Positions 22,030 through 37,279 of a stretch of 64,000 nt of DNA are shown here, piece by piece. A program made the position numbers and the translations under genes. The stretch is from a bacterium CG_4_9_14_3_um_filter_65_15 (lineage in GTDB: Bacteria; Krumholzibacteriota; Krumholzibacteriia; LZORAL124-64-63), in assembly GCA_002790835.1 (NCBI GenBank), contig PFVX01000056.1:24508-88507 (forward strand), in the 5' to 3' direction. The notes below the pieces were generated by a model that saw nothing but the letters and a program-made list of their open reading frames with translations, had not been told where the DNA came from and ran no database searches. Every line of letters begins with the position of its first letter. Position 1 is the stretch's first letter.

Positions 22030-22509
22030 AACGCCGTCCCAACCATCATCGAAGATGCCCTGCGCCTGATACCCGCTCCCGTAGCGGTGATCGGTGCCGC
22101 TTCTGAGGGAACCCTGGGTGGACTGACAGCCGCCTGGTTGACCCGCGTCTCCCTGGATCCGCCCCTGCTGCTGGTGGCCATCGGCCGGCAGCGCTTCACC
22201 TACGACCTGCTGCGCCATTCCACCGCCTTCACGGTGTCCCTACTGCATGCCGATCAGGTCGCCGAAGCACGCCTTTTCGGACTGTACTCGAGGCGCGAAC
22301 GGGATAAATGGGATGAAGTGGACCACGATTTGCTTGGCGAGGGTATTCCGGCCCTGCGCCGTTGCAGCGCGCGTTTCCTGTGCCGGATCGGGGACATGGT
22401 CCCCACCGGCGATCACGACCTGTTCATCGGCCGCGTCGAGAGCGCGGAGATCCTGGCCGGACAGCCGGCATTGCCCATGCGGGGCCGCGATTACGCCCCG
22501 TCCGAATGA
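22030..22509 (+). CDS. Flavin reductase-like (FMN-binding split-barrel) protein
   Basis: LIPAPVAVIGAASEGTLGGLTAAWLTRVSLDPPLLLVAIGR... is typical of flavin reductase domains. The start is uncertain (GTG at 22030). Confidence 0.55.
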   Translation, partial: NAVPTIIEDALRLIPAPVAVIGAASEGTLGGLTAAWLTRVSLDPPLLLVAIGRQRFTYDLLRHSTAFTVSLLHADQVAEARLFGLYSRRERDKWDEVDHDLLGEGIPALRRCSARFLCRIGDMVPTGDHDLFIGRVESAEILAGQPALPMRGRDYAPSE

Positions 22510-22616
22510 GCGCCGTCCAGGGGCCGCTTGCCGATTCCCCGGATGGGGTTAGAATGTCGCCTAGGGCCGGCTCGGGCCCGCACGAACCGGATTTGAACCC
22601 CCAGGAGGTTGGCCGT

Positions 22617-22976
22617 ATGGAATCAACCCGCTCTGAGCTGATCAACAGCACTTTTCCCCCCGAGATCCAATCCCTGCCCAAAGTCGAGATTCCCGTAGAT
22701 GGCGTGACCGGATACTGCCTGCAGAACAAGGACCGGCAGGTGGTTTTTTTCCGGTTCGACGAAGGGGTCACGTTTCCTGATCACAGCCATTGCGAACAGC
22801 TGGGCATGGTGGTCGAGGGCGAAATGATCATAGAGATCGAAGGTCAGAGCAATCTGTACCAGACCGGGGATACCTACCGCGTCCCCGGGGGTGTCAAACA
22901 CCGCGCCAGTTTCACGCGGCCGACGACCCTGATCGACATGTCCGAGGCGCCCGACCGTTATCCGGTCCTCCGCTGA
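22617..22976 (+). CDS. Cupin-domain protein
   Basis: About 119 aa with a cupin two-motif pattern (GVTFPDHSHCEQLGMVVEGEM ... GDTYRVPGGVKH). SD GGAGG precedes the ATG at 22617. Confidence 0.6.
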   Translation: MESTRSELINSTFPPEIQSLPKVEIPVDGVTGYCLQNKDRQVVFFRFDEGVTFPDHSHCEQLGMVVEGEMIIEIEGQSNLYQTGDTYRVPGGVKHRASFTRPTTLIDMSEAPDRYPVLR

Positions 22977-22999
22977 TTCCGGCGACATTGTTGCTTGAC

Positions 23000-23030
23000 G
23001 GCCTCCCTGCATGGGGAGGCCGTTTTTATT
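23000..23030 (+). terminator. Rho-independent terminator after the cupin gene
   Basis: 8-bp GC stem ggcctccc/gggaggcc, a 6-nt loop, then GTTTTTATT. The T-run overlaps the stop codon of the convergent M16 gene. Confidence 0.65.
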
Positions 23031-25743
23031 CCCGTGGGCCGACGACCACTTCGCAGCGACCGCTACGGACCAGGCTTGCCGACACGGCCTGGATGTCCGC
23101 GGGGGTGACCGCTTGGAGGCTGGCGATCAGGTCGCCCAGGTCGTCCGCGGGCCGGCCGTAGACACGGTTGCGCATGGCCCGGCTGATCCGGGAGGAGTTG
23201 GACTGGCTGCCGATGGCGAGATTGCCGCAAAGCTTGGCGCGCGCCCGTTCCAGTTCCTCGGCGGCCACCGGCTCGTCGACCATGCGGTCCAGTTCGGCCA
23301 GCAGGGTTTCCCGGGCGGCGTCTTCCGATTCGGGCGCAGTCAGCACGTAACCCAGGAACATTCCCTGGCCGAATCCGGCGGTCGTCATCACGCCCGTGTT
23401 GTAGCACAGGGAGCGCCGGTTGCGCAGTTCTTCGAACAGCCGGCCACTCTGGCCGTTGAGGATTTCCTTGTAGAGCATCCGGGCCGGGCGCATCTCGTCG
23501 GGGTTGCGCGGACCGGGCCAGCCGACCAGCAGAACACATTGGTTGATGCGACGCCTCAGTCGCACGAGTTCGGCATCCCGGCGCACATGGGCTGGGCCGG
23601 GATCCGGACGCTCGGCAACGCCCGCGGGCAGCCCGGTCAGCATCTTGTCGAGACGCGGCAGCAGTTTCTCGGGGTGGATGTCGCCGGAAACGACGATCTG
23701 CAGGGCCTGTGGCCGCCACACGGCGGAGTGGGCATCCGTCACCTGCCGCCGGTCCAGACGGGGCAGGCTTTCGCTGGTGCCCACCAGGGGCCGCCCATAG
23801 GGGTGGTCGCCGTAGAGCATCTCGCGCAGTTTGACCACCCCGAGCTGCAGGGGGTTGTCCTCCAGTGATGCCAACTCCTCCAGGGCCAGACGACGCTCCT
23901 GTTCGATCTCGTCCGCGGCGAAGTCCGCTCGTCCGATGATGTCGGCCAGGATGTTCAGGGGGCCGTCCAGGCGGTCGATCAGGCCGGAAAAAATTAGGCC
24001 GGTAAAGTCGCGGTCGGTGACGGGGGAGATGCTTGCGCCGGCCGCCTCCAGACGGCCGTGAAGCACGGCGGAGTCCATCCCGGCGGCTCCCTTGACCTGA
24101 ACCGATGCGCTCAGGGAGGTCAGGCCGCTTGTGGCGGCGGTTTCCCCGCACGCCCCGCCCACCGAAGTCACCGCCAGGGTGACCACGGGCAGGGTGCGGT
24201 CGATGCGGTAGCAGATTTCGGCGCCGCAGGACAGGGTTTCGGTGACGAAGGGCAGGACTTCCCCGCCCAGGGCGATCATGACCTGGAACCCGGTCACCGT
24301 ATCGCTTGCGATTTCGCCGCCGCCGTCATTGGTCAGGGAATCCTTCAACATGTCCGCCAAGGAATCCGGGTCGGTCGGATGACCGGCCGTGTCGGCGTCC
24401 TCGGGAGAGTAGATCACCACGCTGATCTGGTCGCGGGCGAACACCTGACCGGCCAGTTCGGCCACCTTGCCGCGCGTGACCCGGCCGATGCGGGCGGGGA
24501 AAGTGAAGGCCCCTTCGAGGTCGTCCAGCAGGGCTTGGCTACCCATGAGTCGGGCCTGTCCCTGCACCGTCTCAGCCCCGAAGTGGAAGGCCCGCAGCAC
24601 GCGGACCCGGGCGCGTTCCAGTTCCTCGTCGGTGCCTCCGGTGCGCTTGAGGTCCTCCAGGACGCCGACGACGGCCCGCATGGCGGCGGGCAGGCGTTGG
24701 GTATCGGTTTCCAGATCGATGACGAATACACCCTCGCGCGGCCCGGCCTCGCCCATGACGACAAAATCGTCGATGAGGTGCTTGGTCTCCTGGATCTCGC
24801 GGTAGATACGGCTGCTTCGCCCCTCGGAAAGGATCTGGTTGATCACTGCCATGACCTGGTCGGGATCATCCCCGTGGCCGGGGGCGGAGAAGACCAGCTT
24901 GGCGTAACACTTCTTGATGTCGCCCTTTTCGGTGCGCAGCCGGGGGCCGTCGTGGCGCGGCTCGGCGCCGGGGGAGGCGACCATGGCGGTCTCGGGCGCG
25001 GGAGTCTCCGGCGGCCGCGAAGCCGTCGCGAACTTTTCCCTGATCAGGGCGAAGGCATCTTCGGCGGTGAAGTCGCCCACCGCGACCACGACCATGTTGT
25101 CGGGCCGATAGGCGCTGCGCCAGTAGGCCATGATCTGTTCGCGGCTGCGCTCGCGCAGGTTCTCGTCCCGACCCCCGATGGGGTGGCGGTAGGGGCTCTC
25201 GCTGAAAGCCAGGTCCAAACCCCAGCGCCAGGTGATCCCGTAGCCGAAAGGCACGTCGTCGTACATGTGGTTCTCGTGGACGAGCACCTCGCGTTCCGCG
25301 TCCAGGGCCGCCGGTTCGAACGTGCTGTGAAACGGGACGTCGCTCAGGATGTCCACGGCCACAGCCAGTTCATTCGCCGGAACGGTGATGTGGTAGTTGG
25401 TGCTCTCGTAACCCGTGCCGGCGTTGGTGGATCCTCCGGCCTCGGCGACTTCGCGGGCGAAATCGCCTTCCCCGCGCCGCGTCGTCCCCTTGAACAGCAG
25501 GTGTTCGATGCCGTGGGACCACCCCCGCAGGGCGGCGGGCTCGCGGTTGCTGCCGGCGCCCACCCACACGTTGCAGATGGCCACGGGGGCGCGGTGGTTT
25601 TCGCGGATGATCACGCGCAGGCCGTTGGCGAGGCGCGCGGTGAAGAGGCCGGGGCACAGTTCGCAGGGATGGATCTGGCCGTCGGGGTGGAAATCGTTGT
25701 TCATGGTTTCGCTTTCGCCAGGTGGGTCGGTGGTTGGATCCAT
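23026..25743 (-). CDS. M16-family zinc metallopeptidase (pitrilysin-like), two tandem M16 units
   Basis: Inverted zinc-binding motif HGIEHLLFKGT (HxxEH), followed by a second inactive-type M16 half, about 900 aa in total. No signal peptide. An alternative start is at 25705 (MNNDF). Confidence 0.8.
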   Translation of the reverse strand: MDPTTDPPGESETMNNDFHPDGQIHPCELCPGLFTARLANGLRVIIRENHRAPVAICNVWVGAGSNREPAALRGWSHGIEHLLFKGTTRRGEGDFAREVAEAGGSTNAGTGYESTNYHITVPANELAVAVDILSDVPFHSTFEPAALDAEREVLVHENHMYDDVPFGYGITWRWGLDLAFSESPYRHPIGGRDENLRERSREQIMAYWRSAYRPDNMVVVAVGDFTAEDAFALIREKFATASRPPETPAPETAMVASPGAEPRHDGPRLRTEKGDIKKCYAKLVFSAPGHGDDPDQVMAVINQILSEGRSSRIYREIQETKHLIDDFVVMGEAGPREGVFVIDLETDTQRLPAAMRAVVGVLEDLKRTGGTDEELERARVRVLRAFHFGAETVQGQARLMGSQALLDDLEGAFTFPARIGRVTRGKVAELAGQVFARDQISVVIYSPEDADTAGHPTDPDSLADMLKDSLTNDGGGEIASDTVTGFQVMIALGGEVLPFVTETLSCGAEICYRIDRTLPVVTLAVTSVGGACGETAATSGLTSLSASVQVKGAAGMDSAVLHGRLEAAGASISPVTDRDFTGLIFSGLIDRLDGPLNILADIIGRADFAADEIEQERRLALEELASLEDNPLQLGVVKLREMLYGDHPYGRPLVGTSESLPRLDRRQVTDAHSAVWRPQALQIVVSGDIHPEKLLPRLDKMLTGLPAGVAERPDPGPAHVRRDAELVRLRRRINQCVLLVGWPGPRNPDEMRPARMLYKEILNGQSGRLFEELRNRRSLCYNTGVMTTAGFGQGMFLGYVLTAPESEDAARETLLAELDRMVDEPVAAEELERARAKLCGNLAIGSQSNSSRISRAMRNRVYGRPADDLGDLIASLQAVTPADIQAVSASLVRSGRCEVVVGPRE

Positions 25744-25801
25744 TATGGAGGCGCCGGGGGGATTGCCAAGGGCAAAGGCGGAAAACCGGGAGACAGGGGG
25801 G

Positions 25802-26641
25802 TCAATCCTCGCGCAGGAAAAGGTCCGCCCAGGTTGCAGGCAGGTGGCCACGGGGCGCAACCAGGGCCAGGGCCAGATCACCCTCGATCCAGACCAGGGC
25901 TTCCCGTTCCCAGCCCTCGCCGTGATACACACGGTGACCGCGCACGATCCGGAAACCCATGTCGCCGGGAGTGAGTCCCTCGGCCGGGACGGCGAACAGG
26001 ATGGCCTCGTTCCCGTCGGGGGTGGCGTAGGCCGCGAGGGCGGAAAGGCGGTTGACGGTATGCCAGACCCGACCGCCTTCCAGGACGAAGTCGGGTGTGC
26101 CGGCCGGCAGATCAGGGGAGAAATGCAATGAACCCTCCAACCACCGGGTCAAAGCGGCCGGATCGTTCATGCGGACTTCGAGGGAGTTGTCCAGTTGCGC
26201 GAACAGATAATGGTCATGGGTCACGTCGAGGATGTAATCGCCGAGGGTCCGGGCAACCTGTCCGGACGTCTGGCCGCTCCGGAACACGCCCTGCCGATCC
26301 AGCAGGACGCCCAGCACCAGCGAGGCGGCCATGGCCACCGGGATCAGCGCCTGGCCCCAGCGGCGAAAGGAGCGCCTGCCCGCGGATCCGGGGATTTGCC
26401 GGGGAATTGACGGCGGAGTTGTCGCCGCCTCCAGGTGGGACTCGAGGGTCGCGCGCAGGCCGGCCGGGATGGCGGCGGAATAGCGGGGCAAATCCTTCAG
26501 GCGCCCGCCCATTGCCTCCACGCCGGCCAGGAAACGGCGACAGTGGGGACACCGGCTGGCGTGGGCGGCGTGCTCGGGCGTCCAGGTATCGCCGCGGGGA
26601 TCGTCATGGATGATGGGACACAGGGCTGTCGGATGACTCAT
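25802..26641 (-). CDS. Anti-sigma factor (zf-HC2 type) with single TM helix and periplasmic domain
   Basis: N-terminal HASRCPHCRRF is an H-x3-C-x2-C zinc motif. A TM segment ALIPVAMAASLVLGVLL follows. It lies immediately downstream of the ECF sigma gene (6-nt gap). Confidence 0.6.
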   Translation of the reverse strand: MSHPTALCPIIHDDPRGDTWTPEHAAHASRCPHCRRFLAGVEAMGGRLKDLPRYSAAIPAGLRATLESHLEAATTPPSIPRQIPGSAGRRSFRRWGQALIPVAMAASLVLGVLLDRQGVFRSGQTSGQVARTLGDYILDVTHDHYLFAQLDNSLEVRMNDPAALTRWLEGSLHFSPDLPAGTPDFVLEGGRVWHTVNRLSALAAYATPDGNEAILFAVPAEGLTPGDMGFRIVRGHRVYHGEGWEREALVWIEGDLALALVAPRGHLPATWADLFLRED

Positions 26642-26647
26642 GACGAT

Positions 26648-27322
26648 TCACGCTCCTTCCCGGCGGAGTTGGGTCTCATCCTGGGGTTCGGACAAGAGAC
26701 GGTAAAGCCTCCGTCGCGCCCGGTGCAAACCCGACCGCAGAGTCCCCAGGGGAATCTCGAGACTGGCCGCCGCTTCTTCATAAGGCCAGCCTTCCACGTC
26801 GACCAGCAGGAGGCCGGCCCTCCACAAGGGCGGAAGCTGTTGCAGGGCACGGTCGAGATCGGCCGAAAAGGCGTTGCGGATGATTTCGGGTTCCCAATCG
26901 GGATCCGCCAGGGTGTTCTCCACCGCCCAATCCGCATCGGCGTCCCACTGGTCTTCCGGACGGGCTCGGAGTTGGCGCCAGTGGTCACGGCAGGTGTTGT
27001 GAACGATGCGGGCCAGCCAGCTGCGGCCGTTGCTGCCGGGCGTGAAATTGCCGAATCCGCGCAGAGCCTTGATGAAGGCTTCCTGGGCCACGTCCTTTGC
27101 ATGGTCCCCACCGGCGCAGACACTGCACGCCATGCGATACAGCACGTCGAGGTGGGGCATGATCTCCGCATCGAAGCGGAGTCGGTCTTGTGGTGAGAGG
27201 TACGGATCCAAGGTGCACGGTCCAGGCAAAAGGTGAACCCGAAATTCCAACCCTTCAAGCTTAACGCATTTGCCGCCACTTGTCGCATACTCCTGTGTCG
27301 CCGGGCCGGGATTCGATGTCAC
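26648..27322 (-). CDS. RNA polymerase sigma-70 factor, ECF subfamily
   Basis: Region 2 DRLRFDAEIMPHLDVLYRMA...VAQEAFIKALRGF. Region 4 EAAASLEIPLGTLRSGLHRARRRL. The true start may lie downstream of 27322. Confidence 0.8.
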   Translation of the reverse strand: MTSNPGPATQEYATSGGKCVKLEGLEFRVHLLPGPCTLDPYLSPQDRLRFDAEIMPHLDVLYRMACSVCAGGDHAKDVAQEAFIKALRGFGNFTPGSNGRSWLARIVHNTCRDHWRQLRARPEDQWDADADWAVENTLADPDWEPEIIRNAFSADLDRALQQLPPLWRAGLLLVDVEGWPYEEAAASLEIPLGTLRSGLHRARRRLYRLLSEPQDETQLRREGA

Positions 27323-27379
27323 CCTGGGCTGATCTCGGGCTCTGCCTCAGCAGGAACCCCGGCCCGGTTTTCTTGTGCC

Positions 27380-27991
27380 CTAGCGGAACAGGGCCTTGAC
27401 CTGGGACCAGCTGCGGTCCTCGTTGGCCACCACGTCACCGCTGGGCTCGACCTTGCCGTCCCACATCTCGGTATAGCCGGGTTCCACCAGGTCGGCGTTG
27501 CGGTACACCGCGACCAGGAACGGCCATCCGGTCTGGTCCGCGGGGGCCAGGTCGTTCAACCGCGCGCCGCTGTTCCAGTCCACGTAGCCGTTGGCCGAAC
27601 CGAGGGTTCCGAGCAGCATGGTGTGGGTCAGGGAAGTCAAGACCCCGCCCAGGATCATGGCACCGTCACGGAAAGTGGAGGGATTGGCATAGTCCGCCGC
27701 CGTGGACGCATCCTCGTAGATGGCCACGAACCCTCCGCTGTACACGTCGGAGGCACCGCTGCCGGTCAGGGTCAGGCCGGTCACGACCAGGGTGTACTGG
27801 GCGCCGGGGGTGTTCAGAGGCAGCGGTGCTTCCGGTGCGTCACCGTTGAGAATAATCCCGTAGGCCACGGCATCCTGGCCGACGGCCGCAGGCAGCACCG
27901 CTTGCCCCGTGAAATCGAAGAACTGGACGGCTTGGGCTCCCGTCGCTAGGACGGAAAGGAGCAACAGGCTGACGATGGCAATTGTCTTCAT
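27380..27991 (-). CDS. Secreted hypothetical protein, paralog A
   Basis: Signal peptide MKTIAIVSLLLLSVLATGAQA. SD GGAGGA. Similar in length and C-terminal W-containing motif to paralog B. Confidence 0.5.
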   Translation of the reverse strand: MKTIAIVSLLLLSVLATGAQAVQFFDFTGQAVLPAAVGQDAVAYGIILNGDAPEAPLPLNTPGAQYTLVVTGLTLTGSGASDVYSGGFVAIYEDASTAADYANPSTFRDGAMILGGVLTSLTHTMLLGTLGSANGYVDWNSGARLNDLAPADQTGWPFLVAVYRNADLVEPGYTEMWDGKVEPSGDVVANEDRSWSQVKALFR

Positions 27992-28025
27992 GGCATTCTT
28001 CCTCCGCGGAATTCGGGTTAAGCGC

Positions 28026-28703
28026 CTAGTTGCCGGCGCTGAACTGGGATTTGAGATCGCCCCAGCTGATGTTTTCGTTGTCCACCGCGGAATCGACATC
28101 CAGGATGCCGTCCACCTGCAGATCGTAACCCGCGGGGATGTTGGCTCCGGTCAGGTCGTTGAAGGTCCCGGCGATGGTGTAGGAGCAGTCCGAACAGGGG
28201 CCGGCCAGGGCCGTGCCGCCGGTGGCGTCGATGGTGCCCTGGAACACGCCGCTGCCGGAAGCCTGCATGACCAGCGTGAACGAGGTGAAGTCCCCCATGA
28301 AGACAAGGTCGCCGTCGATAAACGTGGACGGAGCGGTCGGGTTCGGCGGGGAAACACCCCAGTCGTGGTTGTGATCGAAGGATGCGTACACGGCGATGGT
28401 GCCGCCGGTGTAGAGGGTTGTGGCGGTGCCGGTCGTCTGGTTGACGGTGGCGCCCTGACTGACCAGGCCCTCGATAAAGAGGGTTGCTTCCTGTGTGCCG
28501 AGGTCGACCTGGAACAGCGGGTCGATCTGACTGACGGTGCAGGCCACCGCCAGCTGATCGCCCGGATCGCTGGGCACCAGACCACCGGTTTCATAGGCGT
28601 AGCCGACGTAATCGACGACGGCCGCGGCGGCGCCCCGGACGGCGAATACGCCGATGGCCAGCACGCTCAATGCGATGACGGATCCCTTCAAGCCTTGCTT
28701 CAT
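28026..28703 (-). CDS. Secreted hypothetical protein, paralog B
   Basis: Signal peptide MKQGLKGSVIALSVLAIGVFAVRGAAA. SD GGGAGG. Shares architecture with paralog A (Gly/Thr-rich, C-terminal ...SWGDLKSQF versus ...SWSQVKALF). Confidence 0.5.
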   Translation of the reverse strand: MKQGLKGSVIALSVLAIGVFAVRGAAAAVVDYVGYAYETGGLVPSDPGDQLAVACTVSQIDPLFQVDLGTQEATLFIEGLVSQGATVNQTTGTATTLYTGGTIAVYASFDHNHDWGVSPPNPTAPSTFIDGDLVFMGDFTSFTLVMQASGSGVFQGTIDATGGTALAGPCSDCSYTIAGTFNDLTGANIPAGYDLQVDGILDVDSAVDNENISWGDLKSQFSAGN

Positions 28704-29087
28704 GGACTCTTGCCTCCCTGATGATTGCTTTGTCCCGGATGGCGACACCCGGGACGGGGCGATTGCGGGTTACGGGGGGACAACGGAGGGGAGAGGGCGG
28801 AAAGTTCCTGAAAGAGGATAAAAATTAGAAATATTTATAACTTCAATATATTCAACAAGTCACGTCCCTCGAGATTCCGGTCGACTCCGTGCCCGAGAGC
28901 TGCGGCACCGGAATCGACGCCCGCAGGACAGCCGCCGATAGGCGCCGAGACGGCCGCGTCGCCCACGCCGCCAACGCCGCCCACGCCGCGGCGGCGAACC
29001 TCCCGATTCCTTCATTGACGGGGCCACGGCGATTGGCCAGTTTAGACGCGATTCCAACTCGGTTCCCCCCGATCATCGAGGCATGTC

Positions 29088-31175
29088 GTGGCAACCCCGT
29101 CCTACAGCCGTATTCGACGTACCCTGTTCCGGCTCGTGGAGCGCTTCGAGCCCGACGAGACCACCATCATGGTGGTCATCGCGGTATTGGTCGGCGTGGC
29201 CGGTGGTTTCGGAGCCATCCTGTTTCGTTGGCTGGTGAACTTCTTCCAGGGTTTCGTTCTCGGCCAGGGGGAAAGCACGGTGGAGCTTCTTTTGGCCGTG
29301 CCCTGGTGGCACAGGCTCTTGCTGCCCGTGCTGGGGGGGGTGATCGTGGGTCCGTTGGTGTATTTCGGGGCTCCGGAGGCCAAGGGCCACGGAGTCCCCG
29401 AGGTGATGAACGCCATGGTATTCAAGAAAGGCGTGATCCGGCCCATCGTCGCGGCGGTCAAGATCCTCGCCAGCGCCATCACCATCGCCTGCGGCGGTTC
29501 GGTGGGGCGGGAGGGGCCCATCGTGCAGATCGGCGCCGGCATGGCCAGCACCATCGGCCAGTGGCTGCGGTTCTCACCCCAACGCCTGCGGACGCTCATC
29601 GGCTGCGGCGCCGCCGCCGGCATCGCCGCCACCTTCAACGCTCCCATCGCCGGGGCCTTCTTCGCCCTGGAAATCCTCATGCGGGATTTCGCGTTGGTGA
29701 CCTTCAGCCCGATCATCGTCTCCAGCGTGGTGGCCACGGCCATCAGCCGCGAGTTCCTGGGGGCCAATCCCTCCTTCATGGTACCTGATTTCGCCATGGA
29801 GAGTTCTCTGGAGCTTCCCTTCTACCTGCTGCTGGGGCTTCTGGTGGGGCTGGTGGCCATGGTCTACGTGCGCACCCTCTACGCCTCCGAGGGATTCTTC
29901 GACCGGCTGCGGATTCCCTCCTGGAGCAAGCCTGCCCTGGGGGGAGTGGCCCTCGGTCTGCTTTTGATCTGGTTCCCGCAGGTTTACGGCGTGGGGTATA
30001 GCTCCATGGTCCACGCCCTCAACGGGAACATGGCCCTGGGGCTGATGGCCTTGCTGGTGGTCGTCAAGTTGGTGGCGGTGGACCTCACCCTGGGCTCGGG
30101 AGCCTCCGGCGGGATCTTCGCTCCGGCTCTGTACCTCGGGGGCATGACGGGCGGAGCCTTCGGCGCGGCCCTGCTCTTCCTCTTTCCCGGGGCCCATCAT
30201 GCGGTGGGAACTTTCGCCATGGCCGGCATGGCCGCCATGGTGGGTGCGGCCACCGGCGGGCCGCTGACGGCCATCCTCATTCTTTTCGAGATGACCGGCC
30301 AGTACCAGGTGATCCTGCCGCTGATGCTCGCGAGCATCGGCGCGGCCTTGACCTACCGCACCCTGATGGATGAGACCATCTTCACCCTGAAATTCGCCCG
30401 TCAAGGCAGACAGATCCACTTCGGCCGCGAGAGCGCCATCCTGCGCAATTTCCACGTCCAGGACATCATGGAGGTCAATCCCCATACGGTTCGCCAGGGC
30501 GATGGACTCGACCGCATTCTCAAACTCTTTTTGGACAACAAGGACGACCACTATTACGTCGTGGACGAGGCCGGAGGGCTCATCGGGCTGATTTCCATCC
30601 ACGACATCAAGGATCTGCTGCACGAGGATGGGTTGGGAAAATTCCTCATCGCCGAGGACATCCACACCCCGGCGGGGGATTTCGTGTACCGCCGTGACAA
30701 CCTCGAGGATTGCCTGCTGAAGCTCGGCAAGCTGGACCACACCGATCTGCCGGTTCTTTACAGCCCGGAAAAACCCGTGCTGGTGGGCCTGATCACGCGG
30801 CAGTCCATCTTCGAAATCTACAACCGCGAGGTGCTGCACCAGGAGGATATGGGCATCAAGCTGGTCACCGGCGAGGGTCGCATGCACGACTGCGTCGAGT
30901 TGCCGGAGCAGTACAAGGTGCAGCTCTTCGTGCCCCCGGTGGAATGGGAGGGCAGGACCCTGCAGGAGTTGGCCCTGCGGCCCCGCTACGGGATCTCGGT
31001 TCTGGCGGTCAAACAACGCAATTACCTGGGTGGTCTGGAGAATCGCATCCCGGACCCCGGGCAACCCCTGAGACCGGGGGACCGCCTGATCATCGTGGGT
31101 GAGGTTGGGGCCCTGGAACGGCTCCTTCAGGAAACCAACACTTCCTCATTTGCTCCCGGTGGGCAGGAATCGTGA
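29088..31175 (+). CDS. ClC-family chloride channel/transporter with C-terminal CBS pair and TrkA-C domain
   Basis: ClC selectivity motifs GGSVGREGP and GIFAPALYLGG, about 10 TM helices, then CBS domains and a TrkA_C-like end. GTG start. Confidence 0.8.
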   Translation: MATPSYSRIRRTLFRLVERFEPDETTIMVVIAVLVGVAGGFGAILFRWLVNFFQGFVLGQGESTVELLLAVPWWHRLLLPVLGGVIVGPLVYFGAPEAKGHGVPEVMNAMVFKKGVIRPIVAAVKILASAITIACGGSVGREGPIVQIGAGMASTIGQWLRFSPQRLRTLIGCGAAAGIAATFNAPIAGAFFALEILMRDFALVTFSPIIVSSVVATAISREFLGANPSFMVPDFAMESSLELPFYLLLGLLVGLVAMVYVRTLYASEGFFDRLRIPSWSKPALGGVALGLLLIWFPQVYGVGYSSMVHALNGNMALGLMALLVVVKLVAVDLTLGSGASGGIFAPALYLGGMTGGAFGAALLFLFPGAHHAVGTFAMAGMAAMVGAATGGPLTAILILFEMTGQYQVILPLMLASIGAALTYRTLMDETIFTLKFARQGRQIHFGRESAILRNFHVQDIMEVNPHTVRQGDGLDRILKLFLDNKDDHYYVVDEAGGLIGLISIHDIKDLLHEDGLGKFLIAEDIHTPAGDFVYRRDNLEDCLLKLGKLDHTDLPVLYSPEKPVLVGLITRQSIFEIYNREVLHQEDMGIKLVTGEGRMHDCVELPEQYKVQLFVPPVEWEGRTLQELALRPRYGISVLAVKQRNYLGGLENRIPDPGQPLRPGDRLIIVGEVGALERLLQETNTSSFAPGGQES

Positions 31176-31259: not shown

Positions 31260-31396
31260 GTCTCGCCCGTGCCATGTTCGCTGGAAAAACGCATGTTTTC
31301 GCTTTTTTTCCGTTCGAGAAGATCCTGTTGTCTTCTCCCGATGAAGGGATATACGATGCCCGAAACGGAAAGTTCCCCACTTTTTGCGGGAGGATC

Positions 31397-32902
31397 ATGA
31401 ACCCCCTGAACGTCCTGATGGTGGCCGCGGAATACGCCCCTCTGGCCAAGGTGGGTGGGTTGGGCGACGTCACCGCCGCTCTGGCCGATGCGCTTGTGGC
31501 GCGGGGCCACCGGGTCAAAATCGTGCTGCCCCTGTACCGGGATCTGGACCGGGACCGGCTGGGTCTGCGCCCCCTGCGGAAATTGCCGCCGCTGGCGGTG
31601 CGGGTGGGCGACCGGATGCACGACATCCGGTTTTTCGTGGTGGGGCGCGGGTCGGGTCGGCTCCAGGTCCTGTGCGTGGAATGCGAATCCCTGTTTGGGA
31701 GGCCGGGCATCTACACCGATGCGGGCGGCGCGGATTTTTCCGACGCCGTCCGGCGATGGGCACTGCTGAGCCGGGCGGCCCTGCTCTTGCCCCGGGCGCT
31801 GGAATGGCCGGTGGACATCATCCACGCCCACGATGCCCAGGCCGTACCGGTGTTGCTGAACCGCCGGCTCTGGTATGCCGGTCGCGATTTTCCCGGGCCC
31901 GCGGCGACGGTTTTGACGATCCACAATCTCGCACACCAGGAGATCCACCCCGTGTCCGCGGCCGAGGACCTGGGTTTGCCTTCAAGCCAGGCCGTGTATC
32001 CGGGTTTGCTGGAGTACCACGGCCAGGTGAACCTCCTGAAGGCGGGGATCCTGGCGGCCGATCGGGTCAATACCGTCAGTCCGGGATATGCGCGGGAAAC
32101 CGTGACGGACGCGAGCCTGGGATGCGGCCTGCAGAGTGTCCTGGCCGGACGCGGCAAGGCGTATGAGGGCATTCTCAACGGGACCGACTATCGGATCTGG
32201 GATCCTGCCCGCGACTCCTCCCTGCCCGCCGCATTCTCGGTGAACGACCTGGCCGGCAAGGAAACCTGTCGCCGCGAATTGCTGAAGCAGTTCGGCTTGA
32301 AGCCGGCCAATGGCCGCGACGGCCGCCCGGAACGGCCGGTTTGCGGGTTCGTCGGTCGTCTCGTCACCCAGAAGGGTGTGGACCTGCTGGCTCCCGTCCT
32401 GCCCCGTCTGGCGGCGGACGGATTCACCTTCGTCGTTCAGGGCACGGGGGAATCGCGCCTGGAAGCGACCATGACCGATCTGGCCGGGCGCTATCCCCGG
32501 AACATCGCCTTTTGCGACCGCTACGACGAAGCCTTGGCTCACCGGATCTATGCCGGATCCGACGTTTTCCTGATGCCCAGCCTGTTCGAACCCTGCGGGC
32601 TGTCCCAGATGTACGCCCTGCGCTACGGCACACCTCCGGTGGTGCGCGCGACCGGAGGACTCGTCGATACGGTCACGCCATGGAACGATTCCGCGGCTAC
32701 CGGTTTTGTCTTCTCCGCTCCCACCAGCGAGGGCCTGCTGGCGAGTTTGCGACAGGTGGAAAAGGTCTGGCGGGACCCCGCGGCCTGGCGCAAGCTCCAG
32801 ATGCGCGGCATGAAGGCCCGCTTCGATTGGTCCACGGCCGCGGGGCATTACGAGCAGCTCTACCAGGCGGCGTTGTCCCGACGCGAGGAGTCCCTGCCAT
32901 GA
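31397..32902 (+). CDS. glgA: Glycogen synthase (ADP-glucose type)
   Basis: N-terminal AAEYAPLAKVGGLGDV motif, about 500 aa. SD GGGAGGA. Confidence 0.9.
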   Translation: MNPLNVLMVAAEYAPLAKVGGLGDVTAALADALVARGHRVKIVLPLYRDLDRDRLGLRPLRKLPPLAVRVGDRMHDIRFFVVGRGSGRLQVLCVECESLFGRPGIYTDAGGADFSDAVRRWALLSRAALLLPRALEWPVDIIHAHDAQAVPVLLNRRLWYAGRDFPGPAATVLTIHNLAHQEIHPVSAAEDLGLPSSQAVYPGLLEYHGQVNLLKAGILAADRVNTVSPGYARETVTDASLGCGLQSVLAGRGKAYEGILNGTDYRIWDPARDSSLPAAFSVNDLAGKETCRRELLKQFGLKPANGRDGRPERPVCGFVGRLVTQKGVDLLAPVLPRLAADGFTFVVQGTGESRLEATMTDLAGRYPRNIAFCDRYDEALAHRIYAGSDVFLMPSLFEPCGLSQMYALRYGTPPVVRATGGLVDTVTPWNDSAATGFVFSAPTSEGLLASLRQVEKVWRDPAAWRKLQMRGMKARFDWSTAAGHYEQLYQAALSRREESLP

Positions 32903-34671
32903 TCGACGAAGGTGCCGGTCGCCCCGAAGCCGAAATCCTCTCGGCGGCTTTCTACCAGAGCCCGTTGCCGCTGATCGTGGTTGCCGACGGAGGGACGGTC
33001 TCGGCCGTCAGCCATGAGGCCTGCGCCTTGATGGGTCTGTCCCGCGAAGAACTTCTGGGCAGGTCGGTGAACGGATATTTCCTGCCCCAGCTTCCCATCG
33101 GGCGCTGCTTCGAACTCAAGGAATGCCTGGACCAGCGCTGTCGCCGGGAAATGCTTCCGGGCCGTGGCGACCCCATCCCGGTGGAGATCCTGTGCCGGCC
33201 CTTCCGGGTCGGCAGCGACGAGGGCGAGGATCTGGAAACGGAATACAACCATTGCCTGCTGTACATCTCCGACACGCGCAAACGGGACTACGAGGACGAG
33301 CTGCGCGCGGCCCGAGTGGCCAAGCTGTCCCTGTTGAATCAGGTGAGTGAAGCCCTCTACGGCGCGAATCTGACCCTGGACCAGGTCCTGGAGGCGGTGC
33401 TGATCTGCATCACCGCCGGCCAGGGGTTGCGGTTCAACCGGGCGTTCCTGCTGCTTGTGGACGAAGAGGTGGGGGTGATGCGGGGCGAGATCGCCATCGG
33501 GCCCAGCGACCAGGACGAGGCCGGTCGGATCTGGACCGACCTCTCCCATCAGCCCGAAGACCTGTTCTCCATGATGACCAGCTACGACCAGTCCATCAAG
33601 CAGACCGATGCGGCGGTCAACGCCATCGTCAAGACCATGAGCGTTTCCCTATCGGACCACGACAACGTTCTGGTGCGCAGCATGGAGGAGCGCCAGGCCA
33701 TCCGCATTACCCCGGACATGGATCTGCCGGGCGTGGCGGCCATCAGGCAATGGCTCGGCTGCGACTGTTTCGCCGTCGCACCCTTGATGACGCGCAGCGG
33801 CATACTGGGCGCGATCATCGCGGACAACGCCATCAGCGGCCAGCGGATCACGGATCTGGATCTGGAATTCCTGCAACTTTTTGCCAACCAGAGCGCCAGC
33901 GCCATCGAAAACAGCCGCCTCTACACCGAACTGGAAAGGCGGCTGATCGATCTGCGCCAGGCCCATCAGAAACAGCGGGAGCACCAGGAGACCCTGCTGC
34001 GCATGGAACGCCTGAGCGTCATGGGCGAGACCTCGGCCATCGTGGCCCACGAGCTGCGCAACCCCCTGGTGGCCATCGGGGGGTTCGCCCGCGCCCTGGT
34101 GCGCAACCTCGATCAGGACGACCCCAACCACAGGTATGCCGGCATCATCACCGAAGAGGTCTCGCGGATGGAGACCATCATCCACGACCTCCTGGACTTC
34201 ATCCGGCCGCAGAAACTCCAACGCAAGGTGGTGGTCGTCGATGACCTGGTGACCGCCACGGTGGAACGTTTCGGGGGAGAGATCCAGGCCAAGGGGATTG
34301 AACTCGCCCTGGACCTGCAAGCCGGAGGGGCCAAGGTATCCTGCAATCCCATCGAGATCCAGCAGGTGCTGCAGAACTTCCTGGTCAACGCCATGCAGGT
34401 CATGCCGGAAGGGGGAAGCATCGAAGTGCGTACCCGCCAGGTCACCGGCGGTGTTCAGGTCGAGGTCTGCGATACTGGTCCGGGAATTGCAGAAAACATG
34501 AGCGACAAGCTGTTTGCGCCGTTTTTTACCACGAAACCGACCGGTAGCGGACTGGGATTGACCATCTGTCAGCAGATCATCAAATCCCATGGTGGAGTGG
34601 TGGGAGTGCGCAACCGCACGGAAAAAGGAGCCGGTTTTTCGTTCATCCTCCCCCTTCCCAAGGATTCCTGA
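32899..34671 (+). CDS. Cytoplasmic sensor histidine kinase (PAS-GAF-HisKA-HATPase_c)
   Basis: PAS-like N-terminus, a GAF region, H-box AHELRNPL, and an ATPase G-boxes region CDTGPGI...GSGLGLTI. No TM segments. The ATG overlaps the glgA stop (ATGA). Confidence 0.8.
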   Translation: MIDEGAGRPEAEILSAAFYQSPLPLIVVADGGTVSAVSHEACALMGLSREELLGRSVNGYFLPQLPIGRCFELKECLDQRCRREMLPGRGDPIPVEILCRPFRVGSDEGEDLETEYNHCLLYISDTRKRDYEDELRAARVAKLSLLNQVSEALYGANLTLDQVLEAVLICITAGQGLRFNRAFLLLVDEEVGVMRGEIAIGPSDQDEAGRIWTDLSHQPEDLFSMMTSYDQSIKQTDAAVNAIVKTMSVSLSDHDNVLVRSMEERQAIRITPDMDLPGVAAIRQWLGCDCFAVAPLMTRSGILGAIIADNAISGQRITDLDLEFLQLFANQSASAIENSRLYTELERRLIDLRQAHQKQREHQETLLRMERLSVMGETSAIVAHELRNPLVAIGGFARALVRNLDQDDPNHRYAGIITEEVSRMETIIHDLLDFIRPQKLQRKVVVVDDLVTATVERFGGEIQAKGIELALDLQAGGAKVSCNPIEIQQVLQNFLVNAMQVMPEGGSIEVRTRQVTGGVQVEVCDTGPGIAENMSDKLFAPFFTTKPTGSGLGLTICQQIIKSHGGVVGVRNRTEKGAGFSFILPLPKDS

Positions 34672-34804
34672 TTGGTCCGGATGTTTATTTATCATGGACT
34701 GCGGAGATCAACTGGCATCATCCCGGGTGATTTGTTAAGGTGTGATGGGAGCTTGAGGAGAATGCCCTGAACGGGTAGGGTGGATGGACGCAGGAGGCAA
34801 AATT

Positions 34805-35176
34805 ATGAGCAGGATCCTCATTGTCGATGATGAACCCCACCTGCGATTGCTGTACGAGACGGAATTGCGGCGTGCCGGGTTCGAGACCATGACCGCTTCC
34901 AATGCGGTGCAGGGGCTCGAATTCGTAGAGACCATGGAGCCCGATCTTGTTATTCTCGACATCCGGATGGCGGGAATGGACGGGATCGAGGCCATGCAGC
35001 ACATCATGGAACGCGATCAGCGGGTCCCCGTCATTCTGAACACGGCCTTTTCGAGTTACAAGGACAACTATCTGACCTGGGCCGCGGACGCGTACCTGAC
35101 CAAATCGTCTGACGTCACCGAGCTGGTGGAAACCGTTAAGCAGGTTCTGGAGAAGCAGGCCACCGCCCACGGTTGA
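34805..35176 (+). CDS. Single-domain response regulator (CheY-like receiver)
   Basis: ILIVDDEPHLR...DLVILDIRMAGMDG... SD AGGAGG. Confidence 0.8.
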   Translation: MSRILIVDDEPHLRLLYETELRRAGFETMTASNAVQGLEFVETMEPDLVILDIRMAGMDGIEAMQHIMERDQRVPVILNTAFSSYKDNYLTWAADAYLTKSSDVTELVETVKQVLEKQATAHG

Positions 35177-35234
35177 CGACGGCTCCCGATCTGGTTGACG
35201 CATCGCCCGTGGCTGCAACCGTGGAGCCTGACCC

Positions 35235-36479: not shown

Positions 36480-37279
36480 AGCCGGTATTGGTCCGGTCGC
36501 CGGTCGCCGAAGATGTGGTTGCGCGGAGTCACCTGCTGGACGATGTCGGCGAGGTCGATGGCGGCGGTGGCCGCACCCTCGCTCTCGCGATCCAAGCGGG
36601 TCAGGACGTCTCCGAGGGGTGAGACGATCTGGCTCATGCCGATGAACTCCAGACTCTGGCCGGTGCGGCACTCGCTGCCGATGCGGTTGGCGGTGACGGC
36701 GAAGACCCGGTTCTCCTGACAGCGGGTCACCATGGCCGCGGGGCACCAGGGCAGGATCAGGTTCGAGGGGTGGCACAGGATCTGTGCGCCGGCCAGGGCC
36801 AGTGAGCGCCCCGCTTCGGGAAAAAGCCAATCGAAGCAGATCATCATGCCGATCCGCGCGCCGCAGGCCGTCACCACGCCGAACCCCCGGTCGCCTGGTT
36901 GAAAGATCTCCTTTTCCCGATCGAAGAGATGGACCTTGCGGTAGATCTCCCGGCTGCCGTCGGGGCGCACGAGGATGGAACTGTTGTAGACATGGTCGGC
37001 TGATTTTTCCGCGAGACCGGCGACGAGGGTAGAGCCCGTGGCCGCGGGTTTTGCCGTCAAGGCGGTGGTGATCGGACCGCCCGCCCCCCCGGGGGCGGCC
37101 TCCTCGGCGACGGCGGCGGCTTCGGCCGGGTCGCGGAACTGGTAGCCGGTGGCGAAGAGCTCGGGCAGAACGACCAGATCGCAATCGGCGGGGACGAGGT
37201 CCAGGGCGCGCACGAGATTGCCGCGGATGTCACCGAACACCGGCTGTGTCTGGACGGCTGCGATGGTCAGGCTGCTCAC
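36476..37279 (-). CDS. Carbon-nitrogen hydrolase family protein (nitrilase/amidase-like)
   Basis: ...LPELFATGY... and a catalytic Cys context ...MMICFDWLFPE... GTG start with SD GAAGGAG. Confidence 0.75.
   Translation of the reverse strand: MSSLTIAAVQTQPVFGDIRGNLVRALDLVPADCDLVVLPELFATGYQFRDPAEAAAVAEEAAPGGAGGPITTALTAKPAATGSTLVAGLAEKSADHVYNSSILVRPDGSREIYRKVHLFDREKEIFQPGDRGFGVVTACGARIGMMICFDWLFPEAGRSLALAGAQILCHPSNLILPWCPAAMVTRCQENRVFAVTANRIGSECRTGQSLEFIGMSQIVSPLGDVLTRLDRESEGAATAAIDLADIVQQVTPRNHIFGDRRPDQYRL

What the first reader, a model, noticed from the sequence alone, without database searches (positions are those of the whole stretch)
23026..28703. Probable operon: two paralogous secreted proteins - ECF sigma - zf-HC2 anti-sigma - 900-aa tandem M16 peptidase
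Seen in sequence:
- Five same-strand genes with short gaps (6 nt between the sigma and anti-sigma genes).
- An ECF sigma factor with intact regions 2 and 4.
- An anti-sigma factor with HxxxCxxC plus one TM helix.
- Two upstream paralogs (about 200 aa, signal peptides, strong SDs) of unknown fold.
- A downstream pitrilysin-like HxxEH peptidase without a signal peptide.

Inference: this looks like an envelope-stress or cell-surface-signalling module. The paralogs are likely sigma targets or signals, and the M16 peptidase may be the regulated output or may process the anti-sigma factor.
Basis: partly seen in the sequence, partly recalled or inferred. Interest (0 to 1): 0.5.

Follow-up and report, generated by a model that had tools for sequence, protein, structure and literature searches.

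The report
ECF sigma switch driving paired barrel proteins
An alternative sigma factor and its membrane anti-sigma partner sit beside, and probably switch on, two related secreted barrel proteins of an uncharacterised family found almost only in Krumholzibacteriota, while the neighbouring peptidase is probably just a neighbour.

Summary
All five genes are present as described. The five-gene operon reading holds only in part.

**What is conserved**
- In 53 genome loci, mostly labelled Krumholzibacteriota, plus two metagenome contigs, the conserved unit is a two-gene cassette, A then B. 61 of 63 B genes have an A directly upstream, and the other two are cut by contig ends.
- About 14 cassettes are followed by the ECF sigma and the zinc-motif, single-pass anti-sigma.
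- None of these is followed by the M16 peptidase. It is adjacent only in the window's species and one close relative, and it has its own sigma-70-like promoter.

**Regulatory signals**
- An ECF-type promoter (GGGAACTTT, then CGTT(G/A)TCC, fixed spacing) lies about 100 nt upstream of A in every sigma-linked or orthologous locus with enough upstream sequence. It is absent from all other cassettes.
- A conserved GC-rich hairpin and a sigma-70-like -10 element separate B from the sigma gene.

**What A and B are**
- B models as an eight-stranded beta-barrel with no close solved relative.
- The A/B superfamily has only 273 representatives among 1.84 billion proteins.
- It is remotely related to the flocculation protein PepA, but carries a short tail, [ST]W[GS]x[IV]KxL[YF]R, in place of PEP-CTERM.
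- Unrelated secreted proteins in these loci carry the same tail.

**Verdict:** an ordinary regulatory logic controlling an uncharacterised surface-protein cassette.

The parts
28809..28858 (-). AT-rich stretch directly upstream of the -35 element, possibly an UP-like element
   Evidence: Read directly. Similar AT-rich 'AAAATTATCC(T/A)CTTT' stretches precede the motif in L012, L014, L018 and L020. Function is inferred.
28782..28808 (-). ECF-type promoter, GGAACTT-N16-CGTT (wider consensus GGGAACTTT...CGTTgTCCC)
   Evidence: It is the only match in the 64-kb window at up to 1 mismatch. An exact match occurs once per locus in 11 relatives' loci, always about 95-130 nt upstream of A. Spacing is fixed in 15 of 15 loci. 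It is absent from all A-B cassettes without the sigma pair.
28732..28764 (-). 5' leader of A: AATCGCCCC motif followed by a hairpin, GTCCCGG-N10-CCGGGAC
   Evidence: Coordinates. The hairpin keeps pairing in L067 through a G-C to A-T change on both sides. The AAATCGCCC-like motif lies at -61 to -75 in 8 of 61 A leaders and anywhere in the last 200 nt in 10 of 61, against 2% of random 200-nt windows. Function unknown.
28026..28703 (-). Gene A: secreted 225-aa protein, paralogue of B, ending in ...ENISWGDLKSQFSAGN
   Evidence: An A-type gene lies directly upstream of B in 61 of 63 cases, and the other two are cut by contig ends.
27380..27991 (-). Gene B: secreted 203-aa protein predicted to form an eight-stranded beta-barrel, ending in ...DRSWSQVKALFR
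27301..27367 (-). Conserved GC-rich hairpin between B and the sigma gene; likely terminator, attenuator or 3' stabiliser of the A-B transcript
   Evidence: A 12-bp stem, GGCCGGGaTCC / GGAtCCCGGCC, is present in 14 of 14 sigma-linked loci, and 5 pairs show changes on both sides. The role is inferred.
27258..27286 (-). Candidate sigma-70-type promoter for the sigma and anti-sigma genes (GCGACA-N17-TAAGCT)
   Evidence: A TAnnAT or TAAGCT -10-like element sits at the equivalent place in each of the sigma-linked loci inspected (read by eye). The window copy is weak and was not reported by the consensus scan.
26648..27211 (-). ECF (group IV) sigma factor, 187 aa from a TTG start
   Evidence: Sigma70_r2 and Sigma70_r4_2 hits. 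Closest solved relatives are M. tuberculosis SigH (9e-25) and SigE (4e-22). Gene callers give 187 or 170 aa.
25802..26641 (-). Single-pass anti-sigma factor: zinc-motif N-terminal domain, one membrane helix, and an alpha/beta periplasmic domain of about 155 aa
25742..25769 (-). Sigma-70-like promoter in front of the M16 gene (TTGGCA-16-CATAAT, 10 of 12 matches)
   Evidence: Found and identical in L067. This is a consensus match only.
23026..25704 (-). Tandem M16 (insulinase-family) peptidase with no signal-peptide-like N-terminus; a neighbour, probably not part of the module
   Evidence: Domains, HGIEH. It is not found downstream of the anti-sigma in any distant sigma-linked locus. It is adjacent only in the window species and L067.
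22997..23024 (.). Hairpin terminator between the convergent M16 and cupin genes
   Evidence: 12-bp stem with 8 G-C pairs followed by a T run. It lies between the M16 stop at 23026 and the cupin stop at 22976.

Best explanation
**What it is.** The region is a sigma / anti-sigma switch controlling a two-gene cassette, with an unrelated peptidase next to it.

**Regulators.**
- The ECF sigma factor is related to SigH and SigE.
- It is held inactive by the adjacent single-pass anti-sigma factor.
- That protein has a cytoplasmic HxxxCxxC domain and a conserved periplasmic alpha/beta domain.
- The sigma and anti-sigma genes are probably made at a basal level from their own sigma-70-type promoter.

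**Proposed switch.**
- A signal acts on the anti-sigma. It would be either an envelope cue sensed by the periplasmic domain or a redox cue acting on the zinc motif.
- The sigma is then released and binds the conserved promoter GGGAACTTT-N14-CGTTgTCC, about 100 nt upstream of A.
- It transcribes the bicistronic A-B operon.
- The conserved hairpin after B ends or attenuates that transcript. Any read-through would raise sigma and anti-sigma levels.

**The output.**
- A and B are paralogous, signal-peptide-bearing, acidic proteins of about 200 aa.
- B models as an eight-stranded beta-barrel. A is assumed to share the fold because it is a paralogue.
- They are always encoded as a pair, so they probably act together.
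- They are remote relatives of the core of PepA, the PEP-CTERM flocculation protein that keeps exopolysaccharide bound to cells.
- They most likely act at the cell surface or in the extracellular matrix.
- Their short C-terminal tail probably serves as a localisation or docking signal.

**The peptidase.** The M16 peptidase is a separately transcribed neighbour, most likely cytoplasmic.

**Shown here:** gene content, conservation of A-B and of A-B-sigma-anti-sigma, and the promoter, hairpin and -10 motifs.

**Inferred:** which sigma uses the promoter, the nature of the signal, and the location and function of A and B.
For: - **A-B pairing.** A lies directly upstream of B in 61 of 63 cases across 53 genome loci plus two metagenome contigs.
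- **Sigma linkage.** The order A-B-sigma-anti-sigma occurs in about 14 loci, with A 46-63% identical to the window's A.
- **Promoter.** The GGAACTT-N16-CGTT motif is found at fixed spacing in 15 of 15 sigma-linked or orthologous loci. The exact motif occurs once per locus wherever it occurs. No cassette lacking the sigma pair has it; by eye, many of those carry TTGaca/TAnnAT-like promoters.
- **Promoter class.** The AAC/CGT pattern is the general hallmark of ECF promoters, and GGAAC...GTT is the SigH/SigE/SigR type (established knowledge, not tested here). The closest solved sigmas are M. tuberculosis SigH and SigE.
- **Hairpin and -10 element** between B and the sigma gene are conserved.
- **PepA relation.** 31 of 33 B-type and 4 of 31 A-type proteins hit NF033554, best E = 6.9e-9. 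The PepA role is described in PMC9850573.
- **Surface location.** One relative, P0260, fuses an A-type domain to a type IX secretion C-terminal domain and lacks the tail.
- **Peptidase.** M16 is absent downstream in distant loci and has its own promoter-like site.
Against: - No transcript data exist. The promoter, hairpin and -10 assignments rest only on conservation and consensus.
- In the window alone the promoter match is not significant: one site found, 0.68 expected at up to 1 mismatch.
- The hairpin stem is conserved in sequence, so covariation support is thin. It could be a protein-binding inverted repeat or a repeat element instead.
- The PepA similarity is far below the family cut-off: 14 bits for the window's B against 80. 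The window's A does not hit PepA at all.
- M16 is on the same strand with a gap of only 58-97 nt and no convincing terminator before it. Co-transcription in this species cannot be excluded.
Confidence: 0.6

Rival explanations
1. All five genes form one operon, and the M16 peptidase is either the regulated output or the protease that processes the anti-sigma factor.
For: - The five genes share a strand with short gaps.
- No convincing terminator lies between the anti-sigma and M16. Terminator-like sites in the region are no more frequent than chance: 4 found, 4.7 expected.
- The adjacency is kept in L067, whose anti-sigma is 79% identical.
Against: - None of about 14 distant A-B-sigma-anti-sigma loci has an M16 gene downstream. 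The next gene differs from locus to locus and is often on the other strand.
- A sigma-70-like promoter lies directly before M16 and is conserved in L067.
- The peptidase has no signal-peptide-like N-terminus (read directly). Known anti-sigma processing uses membrane or periplasmic site-1 and site-2 proteases, not M16 enzymes (established knowledge).
Confidence: 0.08
2. A and B are signalling parts rather than outputs. They would be periplasmic or surface ligand-binding barrels that pass a signal to the anti-sigma periplasmic domain. This would resemble RseB on RseA, or a hemophore/receptor type of cell-surface signalling.
For: - They are tightly linked with the sigma and anti-sigma genes in about 14 loci.
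- TonB/ExbB/ExbD genes and a TonB-dependent receptor lie next to the cassette in L012, and a receptor lies nearby in L013.
Against: - About 45 A-B cassettes have no sigma or anti-sigma gene nearby, and by eye many of these carry ordinary-looking promoters. The pair therefore has a function independent of this switch.
- The ECF promoter sits upstream of A, which marks A-B as the regulated genes.
- No FecR domain was found in the anti-sigma.
- TonB-dependent receptors are not a recurrent neighbour.
Confidence: 0.12
3. A and B are small eight-stranded outer-membrane proteins of the OmpW/OmpX/OmpA-N type. The sigma pair would then be a sigma-E-like envelope-stress system tuning outer-membrane composition.
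For: - The strands are long, 12-15 residues.
- The strands carry few charged residues and the proteins are acidic (read directly).
- The anti-sigma periplasmic domain weakly resembles RseB and MucB.
Against: - There is no C-terminal aromatic beta-signal. The proteins end in a flexible, low-confidence helical tail with a final Arg.
- No outer-membrane-protein family is hit in Pfam or NCBIfam.
- The best sequence relation is to the secreted protein PepA.
- An A-type domain occurs as the N-terminal passenger of a type IX secreted protein.
- Soluble designed barrels score as high as the outer-membrane proteins.
Confidence: 0.18

Closest known systems
ECF sigma with a zinc-motif (ZAS) anti-sigma, e.g. 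M. tuberculosis SigH-RshA and SigE-RseA, S. coelicolor SigR-RsrA
   Same: - The sigma has only regions 2 and 4. Its best solved relatives are SigH (9e-25) and SigE.
- The adjacent anti-sigma has an invariant Cys plus HxxxCxxC.
- 17 of 33 anti-sigma homologues weakly hit the RsrA model.
- The promoter is of the GGAAC...(C)GTT type.
   Different: - The anti-sigma is membrane-anchored with a large conserved periplasmic domain. RsrA and RshA are soluble.
- The ECF promoter lies in front of two upstream target genes, not directly in front of the sigma gene. A hairpin and a separate -10 element lie in between.
- Zinc binding and redox sensing were not tested.
E. coli sigma-E / RseA / RseB and P. aeruginosa AlgU / MucA / MucB
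   Same: - A single-pass anti-sigma with a cytoplasmic sigma-binding domain.
- A GGAACTT-type -35 element.
   Different: - There is no separate RseB-like gene. The RseB-like fold, if real, is part of the anti-sigma itself.
- No DegS or RseP genes were noted among the annotated neighbours.
- The -10 element is CGTT rather than TCAAA.
- The structural scores are weak.
PepA, the flocculation-associated PEP-CTERM protein (NF033554) of Zoogloea and Aquincola
   Same: - A secreted protein of about 200-260 aa.
- Sequence similarity of the core: B residues 49-146 align to profile positions 76-177. 31 of 33 B-type proteins hit, best E = 6.9e-9.
- Expression depends on an alternative sigma factor, RpoN1 for PepA (PMC9850573).
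   Different: - All scores are far below the 80-bit cut-off.
- There is no PEP-CTERM anchor (no PEP motif, no C-terminal membrane helix). A short tail, [ST]W[GS]x[IV]KxL[YF]R, stands in its place.
- The genes are always an A+B pair.
- The sigma is ECF rather than sigma-54.
Pitrilysin / insulinase (M16) tandem peptidases, including the YfmF/YfmH-like families
   Same: HGIEH zinc motif, and Peptidase_M16 plus M16_C twice in one 892-aa chain.
   Different: It is below the cut-offs of all named NCBIfam M16 families. It has no signal-peptide-like N-terminus, unlike periplasmic pitrilysin. It is not conserved next to the sigma module.

Membership tests
ECF (group IV) sigma-70 family | Region 2 and region 4 present; regions 1.1 and 3 absent; about 170-220 aa | tested here: met
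   PF04542 at 3.2e-14 and PF08281 at 2.3e-13 are the only kinds of sigma domain hit. TIGR02937 sigma70-ECF scores 73 bits against a cut-off of 42.9. Length is 170-187 aa.
ECF (group IV) sigma-70 family | Cognate anti-sigma gene adjacent, and a target promoter with AAC in the -35 and CGT in the -10 | tested here: met
   A 6-nt gap separates the sigma from the anti-sigma gene. GGAACTT-N16-CGTT is conserved in 15 of 15 loci. Use of the promoter by this sigma is inferred, not shown.
ZAS / zf-HC2 anti-sigma factors (PF13490) | HxxxCxxC motif with a further upstream ligand in an N-terminal helical anti-sigma domain | tested here: met
   C8, H27, C31 and C34 are invariant in 33 homologues. The model shows helices at 7-13, 22-30, 32-49 and 60-74.
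ZAS / zf-HC2 anti-sigma factors (PF13490) | Significant match to the family profile | tested here: inconclusive
   The window protein has no PF13490 hit at E <= 1. 3 of 33 relatives hit it, best 7e-4. NF052375 is hit by 29 of 33 (window protein 30.6 bits against a cut-off of 100), RsrA by 17 of 33 and ChrR by 7 of 33, all below cut-off.
ZAS / zf-HC2 anti-sigma factors (PF13490) | Zinc binding and binding to the sigma | not testable with these tools
   This needs biochemistry or a confident complex prediction.
PepA / PEP-CTERM proteins (NF033554, TIGR02595) | Score above the family cut-off of 80 bits | tested here: not met
   The window's B scores 14.1 bits (E = 0.031). The best relative reaches E = 6.9e-9. 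The window's A has no hit.
PepA / PEP-CTERM proteins (NF033554, TIGR02595) | C-terminal PEP motif, membrane helix and basic cluster | tested here: not met
   A ends in ...SWGDLKSQFSAGN and B in ...SWSQVKALFR, with no hydrophobic C-terminal helix.
PepA / PEP-CTERM proteins (NF033554, TIGR02595) | An exosortase in the genome or neighbourhood | not tested
   None is among the annotated neighbours. The rest of the genome is not available.
M16 (insulinase/pitrilysin) metallopeptidases | HxxEH zinc motif and M16 / M16_C domains | tested here: met
   HGIEH at residue 64. PF00675 at 6e-39 and PF05193 at 9e-51, two stretches each.
   M16 is absent downstream of the anti-sigma in all distant sigma-linked loci. 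It is present only in the window species and L067.
FecI/FecR-type cell-surface signalling | FecR domain in the anti-sigma and an adjacent TonB-dependent transducer | tested here: not met
   No PF04773 hit in the window protein or in 33 relatives. No receptor gene lies next to the window's module.
Small eight-stranded outer-membrane proteins (OmpW, OmpX, OmpA-N) | Profile match, and a C-terminal beta-signal ending in an aromatic residue | tested here: not met

The most novel reading that the evidence does not exclude
The C-terminal tail, (V/A)xxE-x2-[ST]-W-[GS]-x-[IVL]-K-x-[LM]-[YF]-R, would be a previously undescribed modular localisation or docking signal of secreted proteins in Krumholzibacteriota.

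- It replaces the PEP-CTERM anchor on PepA-like barrel proteins.
- It is absent from a relative that uses a type IX secretion domain instead.
- It is shared by at least three unrelated families of small signal-peptide proteins in these loci.

On this reading, the A-B pairs are often multi-copy and in tandem arrays. One copy is under ECF control. They would be the main building blocks of a surface layer or matrix, assembled through this tail.
Probability: 0.2. Interest if true: 0.65.

Novelty: new variant of a known kind. Interest (0 to 1): 0.4.

Why it matters
- **An uncultured phylum.** All the related genomes found here are metagenome-assembled. This analysis gives a testable regulon: one sigma, one defined promoter, two target genes. 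It also points to an uncharacterised protein superfamily with 273 representatives among 1.84 billion proteins, which may be a major surface or matrix component.
- **A possible new tail signal.** If the tail proves to be a sorting or assembly signal, it would add to the list of short C-terminal signals such as PEP-CTERM and LPXTG, but without a membrane helix.
- **A caution for operon calls.** Same-strand adjacency made the M16 peptidase look like part of an operon. Comparison across genomes did not support that.

Tried and rejected
- **Rfam** search of 22500-29500 at E <= 1 gave only one chance-level hit. No known RNA family covers the leader or the hairpin.
- **PDB sequence search** with the anti-sigma profile gave only ribosomal-protein noise.
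- **Foldseek** of the B model against the PDB gave nothing at E <= 0.001. The afdb50 library was not available.
- **Pfam** scans of the B family (33 members) found no recurrent family.
- **Recurrent neighbours.** I clustered all ORFs within 7 kb of 55 cassettes. Apart from the sigma pair, which marks one orthologous group, no partner is universal.
  - Some subsets have an endonuclease-I-like protein with a type IX secretion tail.
  - Others have Big_7 and PEGA proteins.
  - Others have a small 135-aa cytoplasmic protein.
  - Winged-helix plus beta-propeller proteins also occur nearby, but they belong to a large paralogous family and sit at variable distances.
- **TonB/hemophore idea.** TonB or receptor genes lie near the cassette in only two loci.
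- **Second ECF promoter.** I looked for one before B or before the sigma gene and found none.
- **Tail on other window ORFs.** Only A and B carry it in the window.
- **Barrel orientation.** The model coordinates could not be read from scripts, so I could not tell a lipid-facing surface from a soluble one.

Full report
**1. What is in the window**

Five genes lie on the minus strand between 23026 and 28703:
- A, 28026-28703, 225 aa.
- B, 27380-27991, 203 aa.
- An ECF sigma factor, 26648-27211. Gene callers give 187 or 170 aa, and the open frame runs to 27322.
- An anti-sigma factor, 25802-26641, 279 aa.
- A tandem M16 peptidase, 23026-25704 or 25743, 892 or 905 aa.

The gaps are 34 nt, 57-168 nt, 6 nt and 58-97 nt.

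Pfam recognises only the sigma (regions 2 and 4) and the peptidase (M16 and M16_C, twice each). A, B and the anti-sigma hit nothing.

- A and B are paralogues, with 28% identity and E = 5e-8.
- Both have signal-peptide-like N-termini and good Shine-Dalgarno sequences.
- The anti-sigma has H27xxxC31xxC34 and one hydrophobic helix.
- The peptidase has HGIEH and no signal-peptide-like N-terminus (read directly).

**2. Where it comes from**

Identical proteins occur on metagenome contigs of up to 108 kb with the same gene order. Most named relatives in reference genomes are metagenome-assembled genomes labelled Krumholzibacteriota or Krumholzibacteriia. Some are labelled 'uncultured Fibrobacteraceae', 'bacterium', or, in single cases, Verrucomicrobia or Gemmatimonadales. 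The best match to B is only 62-63% identical, so the window's species itself is not in that genome set.

**3. Which genes belong together**

I ran tblastn with the five window proteins against 53 genome loci and two long metagenome contigs.

- An A-type gene lies directly upstream of every B-type gene: 61 of 63, the other two cut by contig ends. The median gap is 44 nt.
- Several contigs carry tandem arrays of two to four A-B pairs (L013, L030, L032, L033, L042).
- About 14 loci continue with the sigma and anti-sigma genes: L012, L014, L015, L017-L024, L028, L062 and L065. These hold the closest relatives of the window's A (46-63% identity), so they form one orthologous group.
- In none of them does an M16 gene follow. 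The next gene differs from locus to locus and is often on the opposite strand.
- M16 is adjacent only in the window's species and in L067, whose anti-sigma is 79% identical and whose further neighbours are also the same.

**4. Regulatory signals**

*ECF-type promoter.*
- Upstream of A the window has GGAACTTTCCGCCCTCTCCCCTCCGTT, at 28782-28808.
- In the window alone this is not significant: one site at up to 1 mismatch, 0.68 expected.
- The same motif, with the same spacing, lies 95-130 nt upstream of A in all 15 sigma-linked or orthologous loci that have enough upstream sequence.
- The consensus is GGGAACTTTccg...tcCGTTgTCCC.
- The exact motif occurs only once in each locus that has it.
- None of about 45 A-B cassettes lacking the sigma pair has the motif. 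Read by eye in that output, many of them show TTGaca / TAnnAT-like promoters instead.
- AAC in the -35 and CGT in the -10 are the usual marks of ECF promoters, and GGAAC...GTT is the SigH/SigE/SigR type (established knowledge).
- The closest solved sigmas are M. tuberculosis SigH (9e-25) and SigE.

*Hairpin between B and the sigma gene.*
- Every sigma-linked locus has a GC-rich hairpin with a 12-bp stem, GGCCGGGaTCC / GGAtCCCGGCC. In the window it lies at 27301-27367.
- Five of the pairs show changes on both sides.
- Downstream of it lies a TAnnAT-type -10 element. In the window this is GCGACA-N17-TAAGCT at 27258-27286, read by eye.

*Terminators and the M16 promoter.*
- Some cassettes without the sigma pair end in hairpins followed by T runs, seen in passing.
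- A sigma-70-like site, TTGGCA-16-CATAAT, precedes M16 and is identical in L067.

The likeliest layout is therefore three transcription units:
- an ECF promoter driving A-B, ending at the hairpin;
- a basal promoter driving the sigma and anti-sigma genes;
- a separate promoter driving M16.

Read-through of the hairpin would give positive feedback. None of this is supported by transcript data.

**5. The anti-sigma factor**

- The family is small, with 69 clusters in the large protein collection. The few source names given point to Krumholzibacteriota or unclassified bacteria.
- Across 33 members C8, H27, C31 and C34 are invariant. So are the periplasmic motifs Y-x2-DVTHDH(Y)L, GGR(V)WHT and F-x-VPA.
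- The AlphaFold2 model (pLDDT 81) has an N-terminal helical domain, one membrane helix and an alpha/beta periplasmic domain.
- Profile matches to anti-sigma families (NF052375, RsrA, ChrR, zf-HC2, DUF3379) are consistent but all below cut-off.

It is a zinc-motif, single-pass anti-sigma with a sensor domain of unknown ligand.

**6. The A/B proteins**

- The B family model (pLDDT 82.6) has eight long antiparallel strands and a flexible C-terminal tail.
- Foldseek against the PDB finds nothing significant. The fold class is clear, but it does not tell the function or whether the barrel sits in a membrane.
- An exhaustive profile search of 1.84 billion representative proteins found only 273 relatives. 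Nearly all are 200-240 aa.
- 31 of 33 B-type and 4 of 31 A-type proteins give sub-threshold hits to NF033554, best E = 6.9e-9. NF033554 is the flocculation-associated PEP-CTERM protein PepA.
- PepA is a secreted protein, dependent on the alternative sigma RpoN1, that keeps exopolysaccharide bound to cells (PMC9850573).
- A and B have no PEP-CTERM anchor. Almost every superfamily member instead ends in ...E-x2-[ST]W[GS]x[IV]KxL[YF]R.
- One relative, P0260 (761 aa), has an A-type domain at its N-terminus, no tail, and a type IX secretion C-terminal domain. This points to a surface location for the domain.
- Five other signal-peptide ORFs in the fetched loci match the A and B profiles only through this tail. 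They belong to about three unrelated families.

The tail therefore looks modular.

**7. Conclusion**

- The regulatory logic is ordinary: an ECF sigma, a membrane anti-sigma and a target operon.
- The arrangement is slightly unusual. The targets lie upstream, with a hairpin and a second promoter before the regulators.
- The targets belong to an uncharacterised family found almost only in Krumholzibacteriota. Its most interesting feature is the shared C-terminal tail.
- The M16 peptidase should be dropped from the module.
- I put 0.6 on the regulatory model. I put roughly 0.3 on the specific idea that A and B act like PepA at the surface or in the matrix.

Noticed in passing
L017:16384-17208, L043:3861-4616, L052:369-1088 and 1075-1734, L059:8915-9529: Five other signal-peptide ORFs of about 200-270 aa end in the same tail, ...E..[ST]W[SG]xVK[AS][LM][FY]R. 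They match the A and B profiles only through those last 16-20 residues. L052a, L052b and L059 look related to one another, and the two L052 genes are again a tandem pair.
   Followed up: partly
window 28756-28764 (-), and A-gene leaders in L013, L015, L030, L032, L035, L040, L042, L048: An AAATCGCCC-like motif occurs in the last 200 nt before the A start in 10 of 61 cassettes (8 of them at 61-75 nt), whatever the promoter type, against 2% of random 200-nt windows. No explanation was found.
   Followed up: partly
window 28732-28755 (-): The hairpin in the A leader, GTCCCGG...CCGGGAC, keeps its pairing in L067 through a G-C to A-T change on both sides. By eye, other sigma-linked loci also have a leader hairpin of different sequence.
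   Followed up: partly
L013:2633-3058, L029:7828-8232, L030:7829-8233, L032:6042-6452, L033:1736-2143, L048:8390-8803: A conserved small protein of about 135 aa with no signal-peptide-like N-terminus (MPQRFCQHLEEYGVQ...) lies 350-1100 nt upstream of A-B cassettes, several of them tandem arrays, that lack the sigma pair. It may be a different regulator of those copies.
   Followed up: no
L034, L035, L037, L038, L045, L047 (downstream of B); L041 (upstream): In one subgroup of cassettes, an endonuclease-I-like secreted protein with a type IX secretion-like C-terminus lies directly next to the A-B pair.
   Followed up: no
L013, L030, L040, L042, L048 (downstream of B, opposite strand): In another subgroup, a gene pair encoding a 600-aa protein and a roughly 260-aa protein flanks the A-B arrays. 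In L013 the two are annotated Big_7 and PEGA.
   Followed up: no
protein P0260 (761 aa, from the representative search): An A-type domain is fused to DUF7467, a CarboxypepD_reg-like domain and a Por_Secre_tail type IX sorting domain. It has no WGxIK tail.
   Followed up: partly
window 29088-31175 (+): A CLC-type channel with CBS and TrkA_C domains is transcribed divergently from A. The shared 385-nt intergenic region holds the ECF promoter and the AT-rich stretch.
   Followed up: no
window about 31274-36500 (+), from the annotation of identical contigs: A glycogen synthase, a PAS/GAF histidine kinase, a response regulator and a GlgC-like nucleotidyltransferase form a same-strand run beyond the CLC gene. 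This could be glycogen metabolism under two-component control.
   Followed up: no
window 22997-23024: A strong hairpin with a 12-bp stem lies between the convergent M16 and cupin (22617-22976, +) genes. It is a likely two-way terminator.
   Followed up: no
L012:1-6936: In the 3.8-Mb contig, the sigma-linked cassette lies next to a TonB-dependent receptor and a run of DUF3450, ExbB, ExbB, ExbD, TonB and TPR genes. This is not seen in the window or as a recurrent neighbour.
   Followed up: partly
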